Source: a virus (Duplodnaviria; Caudoviricetes). Taken from it: DNA of 24,457 nt. The translations under genes and the position numbers were made by a program. Of this stretch, positions 1-23,886 are shown piece by piece. Under the pieces are notes generated by a model. It was given only the letters and a program-made list of their open reading frames with translations, did no database searches and had not been told where the DNA came from. Each line of letters opens with the position of its first letter. The first letter of the stretch is position 1. Location of the stretch: IMG/VR virus record IMGVR_UViG_3300025071_000050, positions 1 to 24,457 of that record. One strand, written 5' to 3'.

Positions 1-894
1 TCCTCTTACACCTCCGTCTGGAGAATTTCCAACTGCTACCTTTAAGTTTCCTTCAGAAAATGTTACGTCAGGGTCTGCGTCTAAAGGATTCATAGTAGCA
101 AAGTTATTTGTAGGGCTGTCAGGAACTACATCAGTTGAAGCTAAATTATTAACAGCGTAATGATTGTTGTTACCACTTGTATCCGCACCTATACCACTTG
201 AATTTTGACTAGTGCCTGTTTGTTTGAACTGTAATCTATAACCATTAGTACCAAAGGTAAGTCCAGAAGTATCTTTAGGAATCCATATGTCGTTTTTAAG
301 TTCGCCAAATGATGCTGGTGTTAGGGCTGTGCCATCTATAAAGTTTATTTCAGCTAAATACCCATCAAAGTAGAGGCTAGTAGTATTGTCTCTTCTACCA
401 ATAGCGTGTTGAACAGCGGTATTTATTCCACCATCAGAGTTTTGTGCTGGATAAGTGTTTACTTGAGCAGTAGCAAGAGCATCCTCAACACCATTAACAT
501 ATAATCTAAGTCTGTTAGCGGCTGTTCCTTGAGTTGTATCTAACACATACAAAACGTGATACCAAGCTGATAAGTCACGAGTTTTAATTGTGCTATATCT
601 TAATGCTCTTGTTCCACCATAAGTACCATCAAATCCCATATTAGATTCAGCACTGTCTATAATTAATGCGTTAACTACTCCCGCAATGCTAAAAAGAACT
701 TGGTCGTCATCATTTAAACTTTTTTTAACCCAAGCACTCCAAGACCAAGTTTTAAGATTACCAGCAGAGCTAGGAGTAAAACTTAAATATGCATTATCAT
801 CATCGTTAAACCGCAGTGAGTTACTTATCTCATGTCCATACAACCCACTAGATGCATTATACATCCATTGTGATGAACCAAAAGGACCACTCAT
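1..894 (-). CDS. LamG/concanavalin A-like lectin-domain virion protein (putative receptor-binding); truncated at the window edge and absent from the ORF track
   Basis: ATG at 894 overlaps the tail-fibre stop (TAATG). The frame is open to position 1: MSGPFGSSQWMYN...SLRFNDDDNAYL...TWSWSAWVK...WYHVLYVLDTT...RLYVNG...IGRR...FDGYLAEINFIDG, a typical LamG-like pattern. Confidence 0.85.
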   Translation of the reverse strand, partial: MSGPFGSSQWMYNASSGLYGHEISNSLRFNDDDNAYLSFTPSSAGNLKTWSWSAWVKKSLNDDDQVLFSIAGVVNALIIDSAESNMGFDGTYGGTRALRYSTIKTRDLSAWYHVLYVLDTTQGTAANRLRLYVNGVEDALATAQVNTYPAQNSDGGINTAVQHAIGRRDNTTSLYFDGYLAEINFIDGTALTPASFGELKNDIWIPKDTSGLTFGTNGYRLQFKQTGTSQNSSGIGADTSGNNNHYAVNNLASTDVVPDSPTNNFATMNPLDADPDVTFSEGNLKVAVGNSPDGGVRG

Positions 895-3080
895 TATGAG
901 AACGCCAGTTGAGGTGCGCCAAGCAGTATACGCCCTGACGCTGCTACAACATAAGGTATAATGTCTGTAGCACTTGCTGTACTTGTTAGCGTTATGCCAG
1001 CACCCCCTGCGGTTTCATAGTCTGTGCCTAGAGACAATGTACGTCCACCAGTTCCATCTTGTATGAGTGTGATAAACCCTGACTGTCCTACTTGCTCAGT
1101 GCTTGGGTTAACTAAGGTAGTATTACCTGTGAGTGTAAGTACAAAGTTTTGATTTGCGGCAAAGTCTAGTGTGACGTTACCTGTGTTGCTTGTGTCTGTG
1201 TCTGTTGTAGCAACGGCTGTTCCTGTGACTGTTATGCCAGTTGCGCTGGTGGCAATTTTAGCTGCGTTGTTGTGATATAAAGAAACAGCACCATCAGCAA
1301 CGCAGTTTACATAGGTTTCCGCAGCTGCATTTCTTAATATAATATTTGTTCCATCAATCAAGAAATTCCCAGAACCTGTTTCTTGGATTAAAAAGTTTGT
1401 TCCATCGTGATACACTTGTCCGTGCGCACTTGCGCCAAAAGAAAGTCTATCATCCGAACCTCCACTACTGTTGCCTAATGTAATATTAGCCCCGTTCATA
1501 ACCAAATTGCCTGTTACAGTGCCACCAGCTTTAGGCAGTGCAGCATTAGCAGTTGTTGTTGTGCTTGTAAGTACAGCATCTCTAGTAGCAATATCCACAC
1601 CATCAAAAGTAGAGTTGGTTGTAATTGCTCCAGTCATAGCACCGCCAGACTTAGGCAGAGCCGCGTTAGCTATAGTGGTAGTAGCATCTACATAAGCTTT
1701 AGTGCTTTGCTGACTAGGTGGTCGAGTTGCAGAGTTACTTGCCATGTTATCTTCGTCAATAAGACTTAATCCAGCGTTAGCATCTACATAAGCTTTAATA
1801 GATTGTTGTGTAGCTAGTTTAACAGCTGAGTTTGAACTCATATTATCTTCATCAGCTATGTCTGTAATAGTAACAGTGCCATCTGAGAGAGAGCCAAACT
1901 GTATTGTGCCTGATGCAGTGACAGATGTTATGTTTGGATTAGCACCTGACCCAGCTAGTGATGCCATGTCAGCTATTACCGCAGATGCAGATAATGTATT
2001 CATGTCGCTAATTATATCTGACGTAGCTAAAGCATTAAGGTCACTAATTATATCTGATGTAGCTAATGCGTTCATGTCTGATATAATGTCAGACGTAGCT
2101 AGTGCGTTCATGTCGCTAACTATATCGCTAGTAGCTAAAACATTTAAATCAGTAACAATATCTGACGTAGCTAATGTGTTTAAATCACTAATAACGTCAC
2201 TGTTAGCTAACAAAGCCATATCTGCAACTATATCTGTAGTAGCTAAAATTGCCATATCAGCAACAACAGCACTTGCAGATAATATACCCATGTCCTCAAT
2301 GACTGCCGATGTTCCTAACAAACCCATTGCCGTTACATTTGCAGATGTACCAAGTAATCCCATGTCCTCGATAACAGCAGATGTAGCTAATAGCCCCATG
2401 TCCTCAATAACAGCAGAGGTAGCAAGCAAACCCATATCTTCTACAACAGCAGATGTGCCTAATAAGTCCATATCAGCAAGAACCGCAGTAGCAGAGAGAG
2501 CGTTCATGTCTGAAACAGCGTCACTAGTGCCTAATAGAGCCACTGAGGCGGCATTGGCTGATACTGTCTGTACGTCAGAGGTAGAAGGGCCAGCCTCGAC
2601 TGCACCAGTAGAAGCATTAAAGGCAAGAACCTTACCTTTTCGTGTAGCTACTGCTGGAAGAGTCAATGAAACAGCCGTATCAAAGTCAGTTAGCTGTAAA
2701 GAACGATTAGATTTGTCATTAAGGTCAGCAGCAATCGCAGTAAATCTATCTAGCTCTGTATTTAATGAGGATATTTGGAATGAACCTTGGGCTGGAAAGT
2801 CTGTTACTCTTTCTAAAGCAATGTCTCTAGTAATAACAACCGTACTACCTCCACTAATTCCAGTGACTGTATTTCCTGATGTTGTAGTTATTGTTCCTGT
2901 ACTACCATCACCTCCACTAACAGTGTAATGCGTGGTTAATGTTTTAGTAGTACCATCAACGATAAAGTTAAGGTCAGCATCAGCAAAGAAGCCAAAAGAT
3001 ACTGCAAAACTTGTCTGTGTTGCATCGGCTGCTACTGTATACGATACTCTTGGTGAGTTATTTGCTATTACTATTGTCAT
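894..3080 (-). CDS. Tail fibre protein (T7 gp17-like N-terminal anchor, repetitive stalk, C-terminal adaptor)
   Basis: N-terminus resembles podovirus fibre anchors (SFAVSFGFFADADL...YTVSG...LNTELDR). It is Ala/Thr/Ser/Gly-rich with ATQQSIKAYVD and LPKxGGxxTG fibre repeats, has RBS GAGG, and follows the internal virion genes. Confidence 0.88.
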   Translation of the reverse strand: MTIVIANNSPRVSYTVAADATQTSFAVSFGFFADADLNFIVDGTTKTLTTHYTVSGGDGSTGTITTTSGNTVTGISGGSTVVITRDIALERVTDFPAQGSFQISSLNTELDRFTAIAADLNDKSNRSLQLTDFDTAVSLTLPAVATRKGKVLAFNASTGAVEAGPSTSDVQTVSANAASVALLGTSDAVSDMNALSATAVLADMDLLGTSAVVEDMGLLATSAVIEDMGLLATSAVIEDMGLLGTSANVTAMGLLGTSAVIEDMGILSASAVVADMAILATTDIVADMALLANSDVISDLNTLATSDIVTDLNVLATSDIVSDMNALATSDIISDMNALATSDIISDLNALATSDIISDMNTLSASAVIADMASLAGSGANPNITSVTASGTIQFGSLSDGTVTITDIADEDNMSSNSAVKLATQQSIKAYVDANAGLSLIDEDNMASNSATRPPSQQSTKAYVDATTTIANAALPKSGGAMTGAITTNSTFDGVDIATRDAVLTSTTTTANAALPKAGGTVTGNLVMNGANITLGNSSGGSDDRLSFGASAHGQVYHDGTNFLIQETGSGNFLIDGTNIILRNAAAETYVNCVADGAVSLYHNNAAKIATSATGITVTGTAVATTDTDTSNTGNVTLDFAANQNFVLTLTGNTTLVNPSTEQVGQSGFITLIQDGTGGRTLSLGTDYETAGGAGITLTSTASATDIIPYVVAASGRILLGAPQLAFS
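1959..2534 (-). repeat. 16 tandem 36-bp (12-aa) degenerate coding repeats in the tail fibre
   Basis: Units such as LATSAVIEDMGL and LATSDIISDMNA; the DNA period is 36 bp (e.g. cccat at 2395 and 2431). Confidence 0.92.
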
Positions 3081-11633: not shown

Positions 11634-14218
11634 TATATAATTACCTCTGCTATTAATCCATTAACCTGTATAGGTAGAGGTTCTGCTTGAGTCACTTCTA
11701 TTTGTGGGTCATCACTATATCCAAGTAATCTAAACTCTCTTTTACCAGTAACAGGCGTTCTTATCTTTGACATATCATCAGTAACTTGTCTTATTGTTAG
11801 TGCTGTATTGTTTACACTTACTGCTAATGTATTATTTAAATCTAAGAAAACACTTCCTATTGCTCGAGGCAATCCTGTAACTGGGCCATTGTCAGCAGTT
11901 AAATCAATAGGATTAGTCTTTAAAGTAACGTCAAACTTATATCCAATTTCTGCTGTAAGAATAGCCTCAACATCAGATACATCAGCTTTACCACCAGATA
12001 CTACTACATCACCATAATAATTTGTATTGCTTACTACACTAACAACTGCACCATTAGCAAACTCATCACTTACAGTAAAAGCACCTGTAGTGCTGGTATA
12101 AGTCTTAGCTACATCTAAATTAACTGTGTCTTTAAACTCACATAAAATATATTCCTGAGTACCAGCACCAGTATCAATAATAATATTACAGAACACTTTG
12201 TCATCAATAACACATATAGATTTAAAAGAACCTCTAGTTGTAAACTCAACCCACCCAGCTCGTTTTTCTGTTCTGTTAGAATTAAACACAGCTACAGTGC
12301 CATCGTCATTTACCATAAATATATAAGATTCATTTCTATTTATTGCACCTCTAAGAACAGACTGCTCAATAGGATTCTTAATAAGATGCGATGAAATAGA
12401 AGAAATAGAAGATGCAGTATACGAACCTTCTGCGTCTGAATAAATGTATTCTCTAACAATAGAACCATTCTTTTGCACAAATACTGTGCCACCATCTAAT
12501 GACTCAGGACGAATCCATGTGCTACCATAAGGTGTTTGTTTTCTTAACTGTGCATTAGTTGGAGTTATTGCGTTACCTAGATATGTAGGCACAAATAATT
12601 CATTACTAGCTGTAAATATTTGCAAATCTCTATTAGACACTAAATGTCTTATTTCGTTTACTTCACCAGTAGCCGCAATCAATTGTATTGAATCAGAATC
12701 ATTTGCTGTACCTACATCAAAGTTCCAGTAAGCATTTGTTTTGCTCATCCATATAGCATCAGGCTGTGAGCTTGTTCCACCAAATACTAATCTATTTTCA
12801 TGGAAAGTAACGGCTGTAGGAAATCCTCTCAAAGAAGAAAAAGTTTGCTCTTGCCAATCCAATGTAGCCGCACCAGTAGTAATTTTAATAGAAGCACCAC
12901 CACCATCTTCACTAGCATTAGCATCAGCGTTAGCTGTAAATGTGTATGTATTCTCATCTATAATAGCCAAGATAGCTTCTGAATTATTTAAATTACCTAC
13001 GGCAATACCGCCAACAGCCGCAGCATCAGAAATAACAATAGTCTCACCGCCTACAAAACCATGGGCTATATGAGTAACTTCTATTACTGCACTTCCAGAT
13101 GCTGTCCTAAATGCGTTATTAATTAATGTTTGTTGTAATACTTTTAATATTGTTCCTGTAGCAGTAGTGCCATTAGTAACTGCTGTTATAAGTATTTCTG
13201 AGTTACCATACTTTATTCGTGTACCAACATGAGCTGATACAAAATAAGATGCACTAGTTGTTAAAGTCTTACCTGTACCAACAGCTGTAGCGTTAACTGC
13301 TAAAGTTACGCCAGTATCTTGGAAAGGGTAATATGGTTGGAATGTATCAGTAACAATAGAGTCAGACGTTAATGTATCAAATACTTTTACTTCCAACTGA
13401 AAAGCAGTTGCACTAGTCCTTACTAATAAACGTGGTTTAAAAAGTGTATGACATATCCACATTGTGTTTCCATTTTGAGCAAATGAATATTCATTTATAT
13501 ACTCATCATCAAATGGAATTGCATTGCTATCTGCATCAGCCGTTAATGTAGCTACTAAACTTGTAACACCTGTTGATTGTAATACTCTAAATACTCTCAA
13601 CTTAGCGTTTTCTATAGACACAATATATTGAAAACCATCTGAAAATATAAACGGAACTAATCTACTTTGCATATCAGCACCACCAGTAAAATTTGTTACA
13701 GCTAATCGTGTGCTGTCTGCTGTTGTTACTGTTAAATTAGTGCCAGATTGAGGAAAATCTCTTTTAACAGTTACTACTGCCGCTGCTGGATTGGCTACTG
13801 TAAATCCTGATATTGCATTTATAGCTGCAAAAATAAGGTCTGCCGTTACATTATTAGATGTATTAGGTTTATAATAATGAGTATTGCCAGACGCGGCAGT
13901 AGGAGTACCAGCTCCAACCGCTTCAGACTCTAGTGTAATTTCTGTTCCATCATGTGTAAAAAACTTTATTTGAGTGCCAACAGCAATGTTAGCATAGTCA
14001 GCTACTGTAATTGTAAATGATGTTTGCTCTACAGTAATATCGTACTCGTATATTTTTTCAGTGCCAGCACGTTTAATTACACCTCCTTCACTTCTAAGCA
14101 GAAAGTTTTCTACACGTTGAGCTGAAGCTGAATACACAGCGGAGTCTGTTCTTGATATTGCTGACGGACTTATTTCACCAAACTGAAAATTATTTACTGG
14201 TACTCGAACTTTTCGCAT
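11633..14218 (-). CDS. Tail tubular protein B / nozzle (T7 gp12-like)
   Basis: NNFQFGEISP, ENF...GGVIKRAGT, GFPTAVTFHENRLVFGG, WMSKT...FD and C-terminal QAEPLP motifs; 861 aa. Confidence 0.9.
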   Translation of the reverse strand: MRKVRVPVNNFQFGEISPSAISRTDSAVYSASAQRVENFLLRSEGGVIKRAGTEKIYEYDITVEQTSFTITVADYANIAVGTQIKFFTHDGTEITLESEAVGAGTPTAASGNTHYYKPNTSNNVTADLIFAAINAISGFTVANPAAAVVTVKRDFPQSGTNLTVTTADSTRLAVTNFTGGADMQSRLVPFIFSDGFQYIVSIENAKLRVFRVLQSTGVTSLVATLTADADSNAIPFDDEYINEYSFAQNGNTMWICHTLFKPRLLVRTSATAFQLEVKVFDTLTSDSIVTDTFQPYYPFQDTGVTLAVNATAVGTGKTLTTSASYFVSAHVGTRIKYGNSEILITAVTNGTTATGTILKVLQQTLINNAFRTASGSAVIEVTHIAHGFVGGETIVISDAAAVGGIAVGNLNNSEAILAIIDENTYTFTANADANASEDGGGASIKITTGAATLDWQEQTFSSLRGFPTAVTFHENRLVFGGTSSQPDAIWMSKTNAYWNFDVGTANDSDSIQLIAATGEVNEIRHLVSNRDLQIFTASNELFVPTYLGNAITPTNAQLRKQTPYGSTWIRPESLDGGTVFVQKNGSIVREYIYSDAEGSYTASSISSISSHLIKNPIEQSVLRGAINRNESYIFMVNDDGTVAVFNSNRTEKRAGWVEFTTRGSFKSICVIDDKVFCNIIIDTGAGTQEYILCEFKDTVNLDVAKTYTSTTGAFTVSDEFANGAVVSVVSNTNYYGDVVVSGGKADVSDVEAILTAEIGYKFDVTLKTNPIDLTADNGPVTGLPRAIGSVFLDLNNTLAVSVNNTALTIRQVTDDMSKIRTPVTGKREFRLLGYSDDPQIEVTQAEPLPIQVNGLIAEVII

Positions 14219-21197: not shown

Positions 21198-21575
21198 TTA
21201 CGACAGGTCTATAGAGACACGAATGTCACCAGCTACCTGCACTTGACTCCTATCTATTGGCTTGAACCCTGCTCTGTCTAGCAAGTCCTTGCTTGCTTCC
21301 AGCTGAACATACTCACTCTTAGCACCCTTACTCAGTCCTGCTAACTGGTATACAGCTGCAGGAGCAAGTCTACTAAACTGTTCTGTCACCACTGTCATCA
21401 AGTGCTGTTGCACGTGTGCTGTCTTCAATGCCTTTTGTGCTGTGACTCTACCGCTGTCACCTTCTGCGTATCCTGCGGTCTTTGCAGCTTGCGTGACATT
21501 CCCTCCATTTGCTACATATGCATCAACTAAAGCTATCTGTCTTTTGGTTAGTTTTCTTACTGCTACTTGGTTCAT
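21198..21575 (-). CDS. terS: Terminase small subunit
   Basis: LTKRQIALVDAYV..GGNVTQAAKTAGY HTH motif; ASKDLLDRAG C-terminal motif. Confidence 0.88.
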   Translation of the reverse strand: MNQVAVRKLTKRQIALVDAYVANGGNVTQAAKTAGYAEGDSGRVTAQKALKTAHVQQHLMTVVTEQFSRLAPAAVYQLAGLSKGAKSEYVQLEASKDLLDRAGFKPIDRSQVQVAGDIRVSIDLS

Positions 21576-21614
21576 CTCTTGTTACAACCCCCTCTCCTTA
21601 CCTCTCCCCCTTCA

Positions 21615-21651
21615 CAGATAGCTTGTTACAAATGTACGTGTCAACTCACAA
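21615..21651 (-). promoter_or_regulatory. Putative promoter of the late operon upstream of terS
   Basis: TTGTGAG-TTGACA-18 nt-TATCTG; perfect sigma70 -35 plus the shared upstream extension. Confidence 0.7.
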
Positions 21652-22061
21652 ATCAAACTACTGTCATAAGTATGCTAAAGAAGCACCTTATTACTGCTAT
21701 CTCACCCAGAATCAGCCTCGTAGTTCCGCCTTTAGTTCGCTGGCTCTGTCATTTCTCACCATGAATTGTCCAAATAGAGTCACCTCAAAGCCATCTTAAC
21801 CAACCACAACAATCTCGAGAGGTCAGTACCTATATCGAGGATGGCTTTGTCACGACCTGTCTACTCTTGCAACTGACACTAGCCTACTCATTCCGTCTTT
21901 TCTTATTCACGAAGCCGATTGTTACCTTCATGCTACAGGCTTACGAAAGCTCGCTTTTTGTCTAGGTAATGTCTTGCCGAAATGTTCATAACTTGTCGAA
22001 GAGTAAGTCACTATTGCTTGAGAAGTTTATGTTGAATGAAATCTTTCTTATGTGAATCTGT

Positions 22062-22354
22062 TCCTGTCATATCGCGAGGGAAATTCCTCGTGTCTTGTCT
22101 GCCATATCCTATCTGGTCAGAAAAGAGAAACGGACGTATCCATACACGACCTTGTGCGGATGCTATTCCACCTTTGGTGGGCATCCTTTATTGAATAGAC
22201 CCTCGTCAGTTTATCTTGTCCGATGGTTGTGGCTAGGTCGTGGTTTATTTAATGCCTATTTATTTAACCACGCTAGATATTATCTGTTGGCTGGGCCAGA
22301 TAGGATATGGCTGTCAAGTCTAAGTACGAGGAATTTCCCTCGCGTATAACAGGA
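22062..22354. repeat. Long nested inverted repeat (candidate structured RNA or cruciform)
   Basis: Perfect 19-bp (22073-22091/22326-22344) and 16-bp (22101-22116/22296-22311) complementary arms, plus a 6-bp outer pair (22062-22067/22349-22354). Confidence 0.9.
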
Positions 22355-22361
22355 GATTAAC

Positions 22362-22757
22362 ATGAAAGATTTAATTAAACATAAACTAGCAATAGCAACT
22401 TACTCTTCAACAAGTTCTGAACAGCAAGACGACTACCTAAACAAAAAGCGAGCTTCCGACGCTATCTATTCAGGTAACAATCGTCTTCAGTTCTTTAAGA
22501 AAAGACTACATGAGCAGGCTACTAAGATGTCAGCTGCAATCGCAGACAACGATGACAAAGCCATCCTCAATCTAGCTACTTGGATTGACCTCTCCGAAAA
22601 GATTGTTGCGGTTGCCCAAGATGACTTCGATGCCGACCAGTCTGTATTCGAACAACTACATGGCGAGAAATGGCAGGCCAACGCGCCATCTAAAGCCCGA
22701 ACTACTCATCTAACTCAGGATGAGATAGAAGAAATCAAAGAAAGGTATGCTTCATAG
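22362..22757 (+). CDS. Hypothetical helical protein, first gene of the divergent early arm
   Basis: Strong RBS CAGGAG 6 nt before the ATG; 131 aa; coiled-coil character. Confidence 0.85.
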   Translation: MKDLIKHKLAIATYSSTSSEQQDDYLNKKRASDAIYSGNNRLQFFKKRLHEQATKMSAAIADNDDKAILNLATWIDLSEKIVAVAQDDFDADQSVFEQLHGEKWQANAPSKARTTHLTQDEIEEIKERYAS

Positions 22758-22772
22758 CATACTTACTTTATC

Positions 22773-22796
22773 GAGGTAGGCTTTCGGGTCTACCTC
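22773..22796 (+). other. UUCG-tetraloop hairpin after the first early gene
   Basis: GAGGTAGGCT-TTCG-GGTCTACCTC, a 10-bp stem with two G-U pairs that form on the + transcript; no U-tract. Confidence 0.7.
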
Positions 22797-22815
22797 ACAG
22801 CAAAAGGACAGACTG

Positions 22816-23016: not shown

Positions 23017-23886
23017 ATGTTAGATACAATTACGCATGACTATGACTTCCAAGTAGTAGAAGAGAAAGCATACTTGGCAGATGGTACAGCAATACCAGAC
23101 ATGAAGATACTTAGACATCCAGATACAGGGTTTATTCTAGGTAGACACAGCAGTAATTACAAACCTATCAACTACGAAGAGATGGTTGATAACTTACTAG
23201 TTGGTCTTAATAACTCAGACATATCTCAAGATTACACTACTGATATCAAGGTACATAACGGTGGACGTAAGCTTAAAGCTACTGTGTTATTCAATGACAT
23301 AACAATCAACCCATCCCCTCAACTCAATGACCTAACTCATTACAGAATCAATATGTTTAGTAGTCATGACGGTACTTGGCCTTACATTATTAGTGCCGAT
23401 GGCTTGCGATTAACCTGTCTAAATGGACAGACATTTGCTGACCCACTATCTAAGATAAGACTCAAGCATACCTCAAGGGTAAGCATAGATGATACAGCTA
23501 GACATGTGCTTAACAATTACGAGACCTTCAAAGATAAAGAAGAAATGTGGAGTGAGTATGCTTATACTAGTATCTATGAGACAGAGGTAGAAGATTTTTT
23601 CAAGGCTAATATAGTTAAGAAGAAAACATATTCATCAGTCAGGCATAACAACGAGCGTCAGTTAGAAAACCTGATGAGTTTATATCACGACCATTCTAGC
23701 TGGATGGGTCACAACAAATGGTCTTTGTATAATTGTCTTACATCATGGGCTACTCACACTGACTTCACTGATAACTCAGGCAAGCGTCTGTCTAAGAGTC
23801 CACACAATACCTCAGTAGAAAGGGAAGCTATGATTGCTAAAGCAATGGACACTGAATACTGGCACACATTAGGTAGAAAGTTATGA
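23017..23886 (+). CDS. DUF932-family protein
   Basis: LGRHSSNYKPINYEE, FSSHDGT, RLTCLNGQ, KHT and KWSLYNCLTSWATH motifs; RBS AAGGAG. Confidence 0.85.
   Translation: MLDTITHDYDFQVVEEKAYLADGTAIPDMKILRHPDTGFILGRHSSNYKPINYEEMVDNLLVGLNNSDISQDYTTDIKVHNGGRKLKATVLFNDITINPSPQLNDLTHYRINMFSSHDGTWPYIISADGLRLTCLNGQTFADPLSKIRLKHTSRVSIDDTARHVLNNYETFKDKEEMWSEYAYTSIYETEVEDFFKANIVKKKTYSSVRHNNERQLENLMSLYHDHSSWMGHNKWSLYNCLTSWATHTDFTDNSGKRLSKSPHNTSVEREAMIAKAMDTEYWHTLGRKL

What the first reader, a model, noticed from the sequence alone, without database searches (positions are those of the whole stretch)
22062..22354. ~290-nt rod-like inverted-repeat element at the head of the early arm that pairs with the first gene's RBS
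Seen: two perfect complementary arm pairs (19 bp and 16 bp), separated by an asymmetric bubble containing a CTTG/CAAG pair, close a 179-nt interior. The outermost pair TCCTGT/ACAGGA covers the Shine-Dalgarno of the 131-aa gene. Inference: this could be an undescribed phage structured ncRNA or leader. One option is an RNase III-type processing stalk that releases the interior RNA and unmasks the RBS (T7 early mRNAs and rRNA precursors are processed this way). Others are a 6S-like RNAP decoy or a DNA-level cruciform, origin or injection signal.
Basis: partly seen in the sequence, partly recalled or inferred. Interest (0 to 1): 0.85.

Follow-up and report, generated by a model that had tools for sequence, protein, structure and literature searches.

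The report
Fold-back DNA promoter in marine phages
In a widespread group of marine tailed phages, the DNA in front of the first early gene carries a long, imperfect mirror copy of that gene's start (here of the whole gene), and it likely folds into a hairpin that switches the gene on only when one DNA strand is exposed, a trick so far described for plasmids entering a cell as single strands.

Summary
The reported 290-nt rod is real, but it is only the core of a 1.1-kb imperfect inverted repeat (21667-22765). Its right arm is the leader plus the entire 131-aa first early gene; its left arm is a non-coding complement that tracks its own gene's substitutions. All 38 of 38 clusters of relatives with this gene family pair its ribosome-binding site this way, and so does cultured Pelagibacter phage Hodr. 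Wobble pairs favour the minus strand, the gene's template, 137 to 17, whereas hairpins after the gene favour plus, 39 to 0. DNA-type GCGNAGC mini-hairpins are enriched on the minus strand. The left arm carries a -35/extended -10 pattern (26 of 32; 0 of 32 on the gene's own strand), and the fold is poorly paired from -12 to +2. Best reading (0.6): an Frpo-like single-strand promoter for gene 1. How that strand becomes single is unknown, the promoter pattern was found post hoc, and it is weak in the window's own lineage. No sequence likeness to plasmids was found. This scan earlier noted similar logic on plasmids and ICEs; the notes shown held no tailed-phage case.

The parts
21667..22116 (-). 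Left arm: non-coding, imperfect complement of the gene-1 leader and whole ORF. On the minus strand it reads as a degenerate sense copy and is the predicted non-template strand of the fold.
   Evidence: alignment; stop codons in all three frames; matches its own gene at 41-44 diagnostic sites against 3-5 for relatives in the distal part.
22296..22765 (-). Right arm: leader plus gene 1 to 8 nt past its stop codon. Its minus strand is the template strand of gene 1.
22117..22295 (.). 179-nt interior (tip), with internal stems. About 80 nt shorter in the three closest relatives. In 11 clusters with a short tip it carries a C-G-N-A-G mini-hairpin on the minus strand; the window has no GCGNAGC.
22092..22120 (-). 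Predicted fold-back promoter boxes on the left arm: -35-like CTGACC (22120-22115), 17 nt, -10-like CAAGAC (22097-22092). Inferred, and weaker here than in most relatives.
   Evidence: family pattern.
22326..22361 (+). Predicted 5' UTR of gene 1: start near 22326-22332 (inferred), 5' hairpin 22327-22342, Shine-Dalgarno 22351-22355.
   Evidence: family mapping of starts to -38..-49 from the ATG.
22362..22757 (+). Gene 1: 131 aa, predicted helical hairpin, unnamed family of 116 clusters at 50% identity; function unknown.
22773..22796 (+). Hairpin after gene 1 with a G.T pair on the plus strand; likely the RNA 3'-end stem (U-tailed in many relatives, not here).
21588..21644 (-). Separate terS promoter-like site (TTGACA, 18 nt, TATCTG) followed by a conserved G-rich tract; lies outside the repeat.
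21198..21575 (-). Terminase small subunit, head of the divergent late arm.

Best explanation
The element is a long imperfect inverted repeat whose minus strand, the template strand of gene 1, likely folds back as single-stranded DNA and is predicted to form a host sigma-70 promoter that drives gene 1 only in that folded state. In the fold the left arm would serve as non-template strand and supply the -35 and -10 boxes, with mismatches leaving the -12 to +2 region partly open. RNA polymerase would copy the right arm from about 30-45 nt before the start codon. In duplex DNA these boxes point away from gene 1, and gene 1's own strand lacks a correctly spaced -10 in most relatives. The extension of the left arm over the coding sequence (to the terminator hairpin in two relatives) would give the polymerase a double-stranded template for the whole gene. 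Shown: the repeat, its conservation and co-variation, the strand bias, the motif positions. Inferred: that the molecule is DNA, that it is a promoter, and the start site. Unknown: what exposes the strand; resection of an incoming genome end is my best guess.
For: (1) Strand: isolated wobble-type mismatches favour minus 137 to 17 in 40 clusters (32 vs 3 clusters, 5 ties), while hairpins just after gene 1, found in 46 of 59 clusters, have G.T on plus 39 to 0. Four-fold sites of minus-strand genes show no deamination skew (C 169, G 167, A 909, T 1263). Tandem mismatches on minus are the types I recall as stable (5'TG/3'GT 11, 5'GA/3'AG 7, 5'GT/3'TG 0). (2) DNA: GCGNAGC in the terS-gene 1 spacer of 59 clusters occurs 33 times on minus and 7 on plus; 30 shuffles give mean 7.9, maximum 14. 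A C-G-N-A-G mini-hairpin with co-varying closing pair sits at -101..-110 in 11 clusters. This motif class is much more stable in DNA than RNA and occurs at ssDNA origins and N4 promoters (PMC13037366, passages). (3) Promoter: TTGCRR, 17-19 nt, TGnNA on the left arm in 26 of 32 clusters tested (8 of 40 lacked the anchoring hexamer), 0 of 32 on the right arm, at most 3 of 32 at other spacings, shuffles mean 1.8, maximum 8. Pairing in the fold is 0.88-1.0 at -24..-20 and 1.0 at -15/-14, drops to 0.35 at -11, 0.23 at -7 and 0.15 at -1, and returns to 0.92-1.0 at +4..+8; predicted starts fall 38-49 nt before the ATG, at or just ahead of a conserved 5' hairpin (n=26). In other gene-1 subfamilies a TTGAC-like hexamer sits beside the tip, with (C/T)A at spacer 16-18 on the left arm in 14 of 18 and on the right in 2 of 18 (2 of 20 had no hexamer). 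No conserved duplex promoter for gene 1 was found. A missing -7T is usual in Alphaproteobacteria (PMC8407463, abstract). (4) Long arms end 8, 23 and 27 nt after the stop codon in the window, L045 and L029, the last two covering the terminator hairpin.
Against: No experiment, and no stranded RNA data. Nothing shows how a tailed dsDNA phage would expose this strand: the early arm of an identical phage has no relaxase or HUH Rep hit. Both promoter rules were devised after looking at the same sequences, so neither test is blind, and clusters are related, so counts overstate independence. In the window's own lineage the signal is weak: the -35 matches 4 of 6, there is no TG on the left arm, the right arm also offers a TG-preceded CA at spacer 18, and the window has no GCGNAGC. 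GCGNAGC is reversed inside gene 1 (7 minus, 23 plus), and GNRA-type hairpins also lean to minus in the spacer of core clusters (33 vs 11 at stems of 2 or more). T.T and C.T mismatches on minus are common, which fits RNA at least as well. The left-arm boxes could simply be an ordinary leftward promoter. The core alone folds equally on both strands in the window (-64.9 vs -65.3 kcal/mol).
Confidence: 0.6

Rival explanations
1. The folding molecule is a minus-strand RNA. It is either a 6S-like open-promoter mimic that binds host RNA polymerase, or antisense read-through that folds onto the left arm and so shields gene-1 mRNA, or a leftward sense-mimic small RNA that pairs with an antisense RNA.
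For: G.U, tandem UG/GU and U.U preferences on minus. Arms always cover the RBS and sometimes the whole mRNA. Minus-strand promoter-like sites lie in the tip of some clusters (L042, L044, L049, L055, L059).
Against: No conserved minus-strand promoter in or after gene 1. DNA-type mini-hairpins at a fixed position. No Rfam match, 6S included. A conserved -35 sequence is expected for DNA read-out (own knowledge).
Confidence: 0.15
2. It is a single-stranded DNA structure with a replication or end-protection role: an RNA-polymerase-primed single-strand origin, a block to fill-in synthesis, or a fold-back cap for a resected genome end. Gene-1 expression would be incidental.
For: The same strand and mini-hairpin evidence. 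Plasmid ssDNA promoters also prime and stall complementary-strand synthesis (10.64898/2026.01.09.698686, passages). The phage encodes a YqaJ/RecE-like exonuclease and an ERF annealing protein. Fold-back priming could generate longer arms.
Against: Does not explain predicted starts just before the 5' hairpin and RBS, arms ending at the gene-1 terminator, or the lack of another promoter for gene 1. Not exclusive of the best reading.
Confidence: 0.12
3. One reading: a plus-strand transcript from near terS folds back, hides the RBS, and is opened by RNase III or by a switch of start sites.
For: The plus strand folds strongly (z -10.8), and the RBS region is paired in 38 of 38 core clusters. A.C mismatches could be kept to weaken a plus-strand duplex.
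Against: G.U on plus is about the rarest mismatch class although transitions should supply it, while the plus-strand hairpins after gene 1 show the opposite bias (39 to 0). No conserved rightward promoter upstream of the left arm.
Confidence: 0.07
4. Neutral inverted duplication kept alike by template switching between arms, or an assembly or amplification chimera.
For: Arm length varies widely, and long arms need three changes on the gene-1 tree. Multi-base compensations look like templated repair.
Against: Kept in 38 of 38 core clusters whose proteins are as little as about 20% identical; strand-biased mismatches; conserved bulges and bubble; present in a cultured isolate.
Confidence: 0.03

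Closest known systems
Frpo1/Frpo2 and ssi1-3 (class 1) and class 2/3 single-strand promoters of F and IncI1 plasmids (PMC9849209, PMC11541004, PMC12672017; passages read)
   Same: A long stem-loop upstream of early genes, on the strand that serves as template, with -35 and -10 boxes rebuilt in the fold and predicted to be silent in duplex form. A cultured relative has an ArdC-type anti-restriction gene in the same early arm.
   Different: No sequence likeness to any plasmid at E 0.01. Found in tailed, terminase-packaging phages with no transfer origin seen. The arm runs on over the RBS and part or all of the gene, to its terminator in two relatives; the passages read do not describe this for plasmids. 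Their supplementary structure figures were not seen, so the arm-by-arm anatomy was not compared.
Phage N4 virion-RNA-polymerase hairpin promoters (PMC13037366, passages)
   Same: A dsDNA phage using a single-stranded promoter with a GNA-triloop hairpin for early genes.
   Different: N4 uses a 5-bp stem and its own T7-like polymerase. Here the stem is 70-450 bp with sigma-70-type boxes, and no polymerase hit was found for the large virion proteins.
6S RNA and T7-type RNase III processing stalks (recalled)
   Same: Rod shape with an internal weakly paired region.
   Different: No Rfam match; the selected strand is opposite to the mRNA; DNA-type loops.

Membership tests
Frpo/ssi single-strand promoters | Long stem-loop on the template strand upstream of early genes | tested here: met
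Frpo/ssi single-strand promoters | -35 and -10 boxes rebuilt in the fold | tested here: inconclusive
   Pattern in 26 of 32 and 14 of 18 clusters, but post hoc, non-canonical and weak in the window itself.
Frpo/ssi single-strand promoters | Sequence homology to plasmid ssDNA promoters (class 1) | tested here: not met
   No blastn match of 21600-22800 in 72,556 plasmids at E 0.01.
Frpo/ssi single-strand promoters | [quoted passage not shown] | tested here: not met
   Terminase, portal and capsid genes; no relaxase hit in the window or in the early arm of an identical phage.
Frpo/ssi single-strand promoters | Active on ssDNA, inactive on dsDNA | not testable with these tools
   Needs in vitro transcription.
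N4-type virion RNAP promoter | C-GNA-G hairpin on the template strand | tested here: inconclusive
   Positionally conserved in 11 clusters with 2-bp stems; no GCGNAGC in the window.
N4-type virion RNAP promoter | Virion-encapsidated RNA polymerase | tested here: inconclusive
   The 1448-aa and 1230-aa proteins look like internal virion proteins; no polymerase hit. The genome record is a fragment.
6S RNA | Match to the Rfam family model | tested here: not met
   window, E up to 5; 8 relatives, gathering scores.
RNase III processing stalk in an early mRNA | Pairing selected on the mRNA strand | tested here: not met
   Wobble bias is on the opposite strand.
RNase III processing stalk in an early mRNA | Cleavage by RNase III | not testable with these tools
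   Needs an assay.
Single-strand origin of a rolling-circle replicon | HUH Rep-driven rolling-circle replication | tested here: inconclusive
   Only an O-like initiator was found in the early arm; not every small ORF has a family.

The most novel reading that the evidence does not exclude
These tailed dsDNA phages use exposure of one DNA strand as the switch for their first gene. When the entering genome end is resected, the surviving strand snaps back on a built-in mirror copy, rebuilding a complete double-stranded gene from promoter to terminator, and the host polymerase makes gene-1 protein, possibly a protector of DNA ends, exactly when the genome is under attack.
Probability: 0.3. Interest if true: 0.95.

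Novelty: new variant of a known kind. Interest (0 to 1): 0.85.

Why it matters
Host-polymerase single-strand promoters are described for conjugative DNA, which enters cells as one strand. A family-wide one at the head of the early arm of tailed dsDNA phages would mean these viruses pass through, or sense, a single-stranded state at a defined place, which is not part of the usual picture of their infection. It yields direct tests in a cultured system (Pelagibacter phage Hodr) and marks an unnamed first-gene family as a candidate for countering host DNA-end processing. The window's version, a mirror copy of the whole gene that keeps pace with the gene's substitutions, is unusual whatever the mechanism.

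Tried and rejected
Rfam: three weak matches below gathering score in the window, none in 8 relatives. Gene-1 function: no Pfam, PHROG or NCBIfam family; Foldseek gave nothing at E <= 0.001; VIA-align gave only generic helical hairpins, best Z 10.7, within the range expected for helical bundles; the ESM Atlas gave no usable hit for a relative. A Gam-like role is therefore a guess, not a result. RNA runs: one 176-nt contig identical to part of gene 1 in a seawater metatranscriptome; contigs give no strand or ends and DNA can be present, so it is not used as support. Strand-specific deamination as the cause of the wobble bias: rejected. A conserved duplex promoter for gene 1 or for an antisense RNA: not found with a matrix built from 32 terS promoters. 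A fixed genome end: 7 of 50 contig ends lie within 250 nt upstream of terS, with equal counts in two other bins, so no conclusion. A second rod elsewhere: none among 162 windows of 300 nt, nor in the rest of the early arm. The permissive arm alignments over-extend, so only mismatches flanked by three pairs each side were counted, and L033-L035 were dropped as unreliable. The one hit in prokaryotic genomes (L167) lies next to terS and is probably a phage contig in an archaeal bin. Literature searches that found no phage case in their listings; most subscription journals are not in the library.

Full report
Observation. The repeat finder showed seven more nested inverted repeats around it. Aligned as a whole, the element runs from 21667 to 22765: a left arm of about 450 nt, a 179-nt interior, and a right arm made of the leader and the whole 131-aa ORF, ending 8 nt after the stop codon. 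The alignment has 368 Watson-Crick columns, 72 mismatches and 69 gap columns, the longest perfect run is 19 bp, and the left arm has stop codons in all three frames. Two other contigs at 99.9-100% identity hold the same repeat.

Setting. The window is part of a podovirus-like genome. Terminase, portal, scaffold, capsid and tail genes run leftwards; gene 1, a DUF932 gene and a DUF6378 gene run rightwards. The closest cultured relative found is Pelagibacter phage EXVC031P Hodr (terminase 64% identical), which has the same divergent layout. In a phage identical to the window over this region, the rest of the early arm encodes small HTH proteins, a RusA-like resolvase, an O-like initiator, a YqaJ/RecE-like exonuclease and an ERF annealing protein, with no polymerase, relaxase or HUH Rep hit. 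Hodr has an ArdC-type anti-restriction gene in the slot of the DUF932 gene. The host of the window's phage is not known; an alphaproteobacterium is inferred.

Conservation. Of 168 sequences held (the window included, many contigs fetched twice), 158 had terS; 145 held the full terS-to-gene-1 region and fell into 59 clusters. Gene 1 matched the family profile at E < 1e-20 in 38 clusters. In all 38, at least 8 of the 18 bases around the RBS and start codon pair with a far-upstream arm in the plus-strand fold. Among the other 21 this held for 5, of which L049 and Hodr look real and L033-L035 were later dropped. Most of the other subfamilies still have a shorter rod upstream of their first gene. 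The left arm matches its own gene best in 33 of 40 clusters; the misses are close sister clusters except L118, which showed no signal. In the window, at sites where the gene differs from its nearest relatives, the distal left arm follows its own gene 41 to 5 and 44 to 3. A consensus fold of four sequences, two of them the same contig, has 27 of 175 pairs with changes on both sides. Arm length varies: about 100 nt into the ORF in L005, the whole ORF in the window, L029 and L045, most of it in L082, needing three changes on the gene-1 tree. Templated repair between arms may produce part of this co-variation, but would not by itself keep the arm over such distances (inference).

Which strand folds. 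In the window 29 mismatches are G.T on the minus strand and 2 on the plus strand. Counting only mismatches flanked by three pairs each side, 40 clusters give 137 to 17 for minus, 32 clusters to 3 with 5 ties. As an internal control, hairpins within 90 nt after gene 1, found in 46 of 59 clusters and often U-tailed, have G.T on plus 39 to 0. Four-fold sites of minus-strand genes show no excess of G or loss of C, so strand-specific deamination does not explain it. Tandem mismatches read on minus are mostly 5'TG/3'GT, 5'GA/3'AG and TG/TT, with no 5'GT/3'TG; that these are the stable types is recalled. The whole element folds better on minus with DNA (-317.5 vs -269.8) and RNA parameters (-581.6 vs -484.5), although the 300-nt core alone does not.

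DNA or RNA. GCGNAGC occurs 33 times on minus and 7 on plus in the spacers of the 59 clusters, against a shuffled mean of 7.9 and maximum of 14; there is no bias downstream or on the late side, and the bias is reversed in gene 1. In 11 clusters with a short tip a C-G-N-A-G mini-hairpin lies 101-110 nt before the ATG, with the middle base varying and the closing pair switching between G-C and A-T. A review describes this motif class as much more stable in DNA than in RNA and places it at ssDNA phage origins, ssiA and N4 promoters (PMC13037366, passages). Against this, the window has no GCGNAGC, GNRA-type hairpins also lean to minus, and frequent T.T and C.T mismatches suit RNA. DNA is favoured, not shown.

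A promoter in the fold. No conserved duplex promoter for gene 1 was found, while terS has a clear one outside the repeat. Reading the left arm on minus, outward from the tip, 26 of 32 clusters have TTGCRR, 17-19 nt, then TG-n-N-A; the gene's own strand has this in 0 of 32, because a 15-23-nt insert, usually a small hairpin, follows the hexamer there. Eight of 40 clusters, the window among them, lacked that hexamer and were not in this count. Other spacings give at most 3 of 32, and shuffles a mean of 1.8. Mapped onto the fold, pairing is nearly complete at -24..-20 and -15/-14, low at -11 (0.35), -7 (0.23) and -1 (0.15), and complete again from +4 to +8; predicted starts fall 38-49 nt before the ATG, at or just before a conserved 5' hairpin (n = 26). 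That is about the extent of an open-complex bubble (own knowledge). In the other subfamilies the tip-side hexamer is often TTGACT or TTGACA, and (C/T)A at spacer 16-18 is on the left arm in 14 of 18 and on the right in 2 of 18. Lack of -7T is common in Alphaproteobacteria (PMC8407463, abstract; PMC7703639, search listing). Both rules were drawn up after seeing the sequences, and clusters are related.

Mechanism. Shown: the repeat, its co-variation, the strand bias and the motif positions. Inferred: the minus strand, when single, snaps back; the left arm acts as non-template strand; host polymerase starts near 22326-22332 and copies gene 1; long arms supply a duplex as far as the terminator, as in L029 and L045, where they end 27 and 23 nt after the stop codon, over the hairpin. 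Unknown: what exposes the strand. The minus strand has its 3' end at the left end of a linear genome, so 5'-to-3' resection of an entering end near terS would expose it, but I could not establish the packaging mode or genome ends. Supercoiling with SSB, or replication, are alternatives. Gene 1 is a confidently predicted helical hairpin (pLDDT 91) of an unnamed family with 116 clusters at 50% identity and no informative structural match.

Comparison. It works, if I am right, like Frpo/ssi and the class 2/3 ssDNA promoters of F and IncI1 plasmids (PMC9849209, PMC11541004, PMC12672017, PMC13478746 and 10.64898/2026.01.09.698686; passages only, no supplements). It is not a member by sequence or by setting. 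Searches for a phage case found none in their listings. Two pelagiphage papers were searched for relevant terms and gave nothing on this element (PMC12753301, PMC10504331; passages). Earlier notes of this scan describe the same logic on plasmids and ICEs; I had reached this reading before that look-up, and look-ups by place, sequence and phage-specific words returned nothing.

Verdict. Real, conserved and larger than reported. Most likely a fold-back single-strand promoter for the first early gene (0.6). Rivals are a minus-strand RNA (0.15), an ssDNA replication or end structure (0.12), the plus-strand leader (0.07) and neutral duplication (0.03). New variant of a known kind; interest 0.85.

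Noticed in passing
window 21588-21610 (minus strand) and relatives: A G-rich tract directly after the terS promoter is present in 57 of 59 clusters; candidate packaging-site, G-quadruplex or pause element.
   Followed up: partly
60-260 nt upstream of terS in relatives, e.g. L010, L020, L048, L067: A TAGTATG-type motif on the minus strand near the outer end of the left arm in 17 of 59 clusters, repeated as TACTAC on plus in L032 and L135; possible nick or protein-binding site.
   Followed up: partly
just upstream of the terS -35 in L045, L058, L060, L063, L067, L084, L147, L150, L153: A TGACG-N3-CGTCA-type palindrome, operator-like.
   Followed up: no
L030, L033-L035, L060, L061, L081: terS-gene 1 spacer: Spacers of 1.0-1.1 kb, several with repeated GCGNAGC-type mini-hairpins on the minus strand (8 such motifs in L034); may hold further ssDNA structures.
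   Followed up: no
window about 22226-22241; L040, L042, L049, L055, L059 tips: A GTTGTGGCTAGGTC-like tip motif is shared between lineages with about 22% gene-1 identity; in L042-like loci it overlaps a minus-strand promoter-like site.
   Followed up: partly
L086:5574-6458 (Hodr) versus window 23017-23886: Hodr has an ArdC-type anti-restriction gene where the window has a DUF932 gene; that both are typical of plasmid leading regions is recalled.
   Followed up: partly
L170:12705-12986 and 12976-13386: The O-like replication initiator appears as two overlapping ORFs matching the N- and C-terminal parts of one family.
   Followed up: no
window 1910-2495, in ORF 894-3080 (minus): 36-nt tandem repeats in a tail-associated protein with a weak LED-repeat match.
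   Followed up: no
L167: A terS-gene 1 locus of this phage group sits in a contig assigned to an archaeal MAG, probably a binning error.
   Followed up: no
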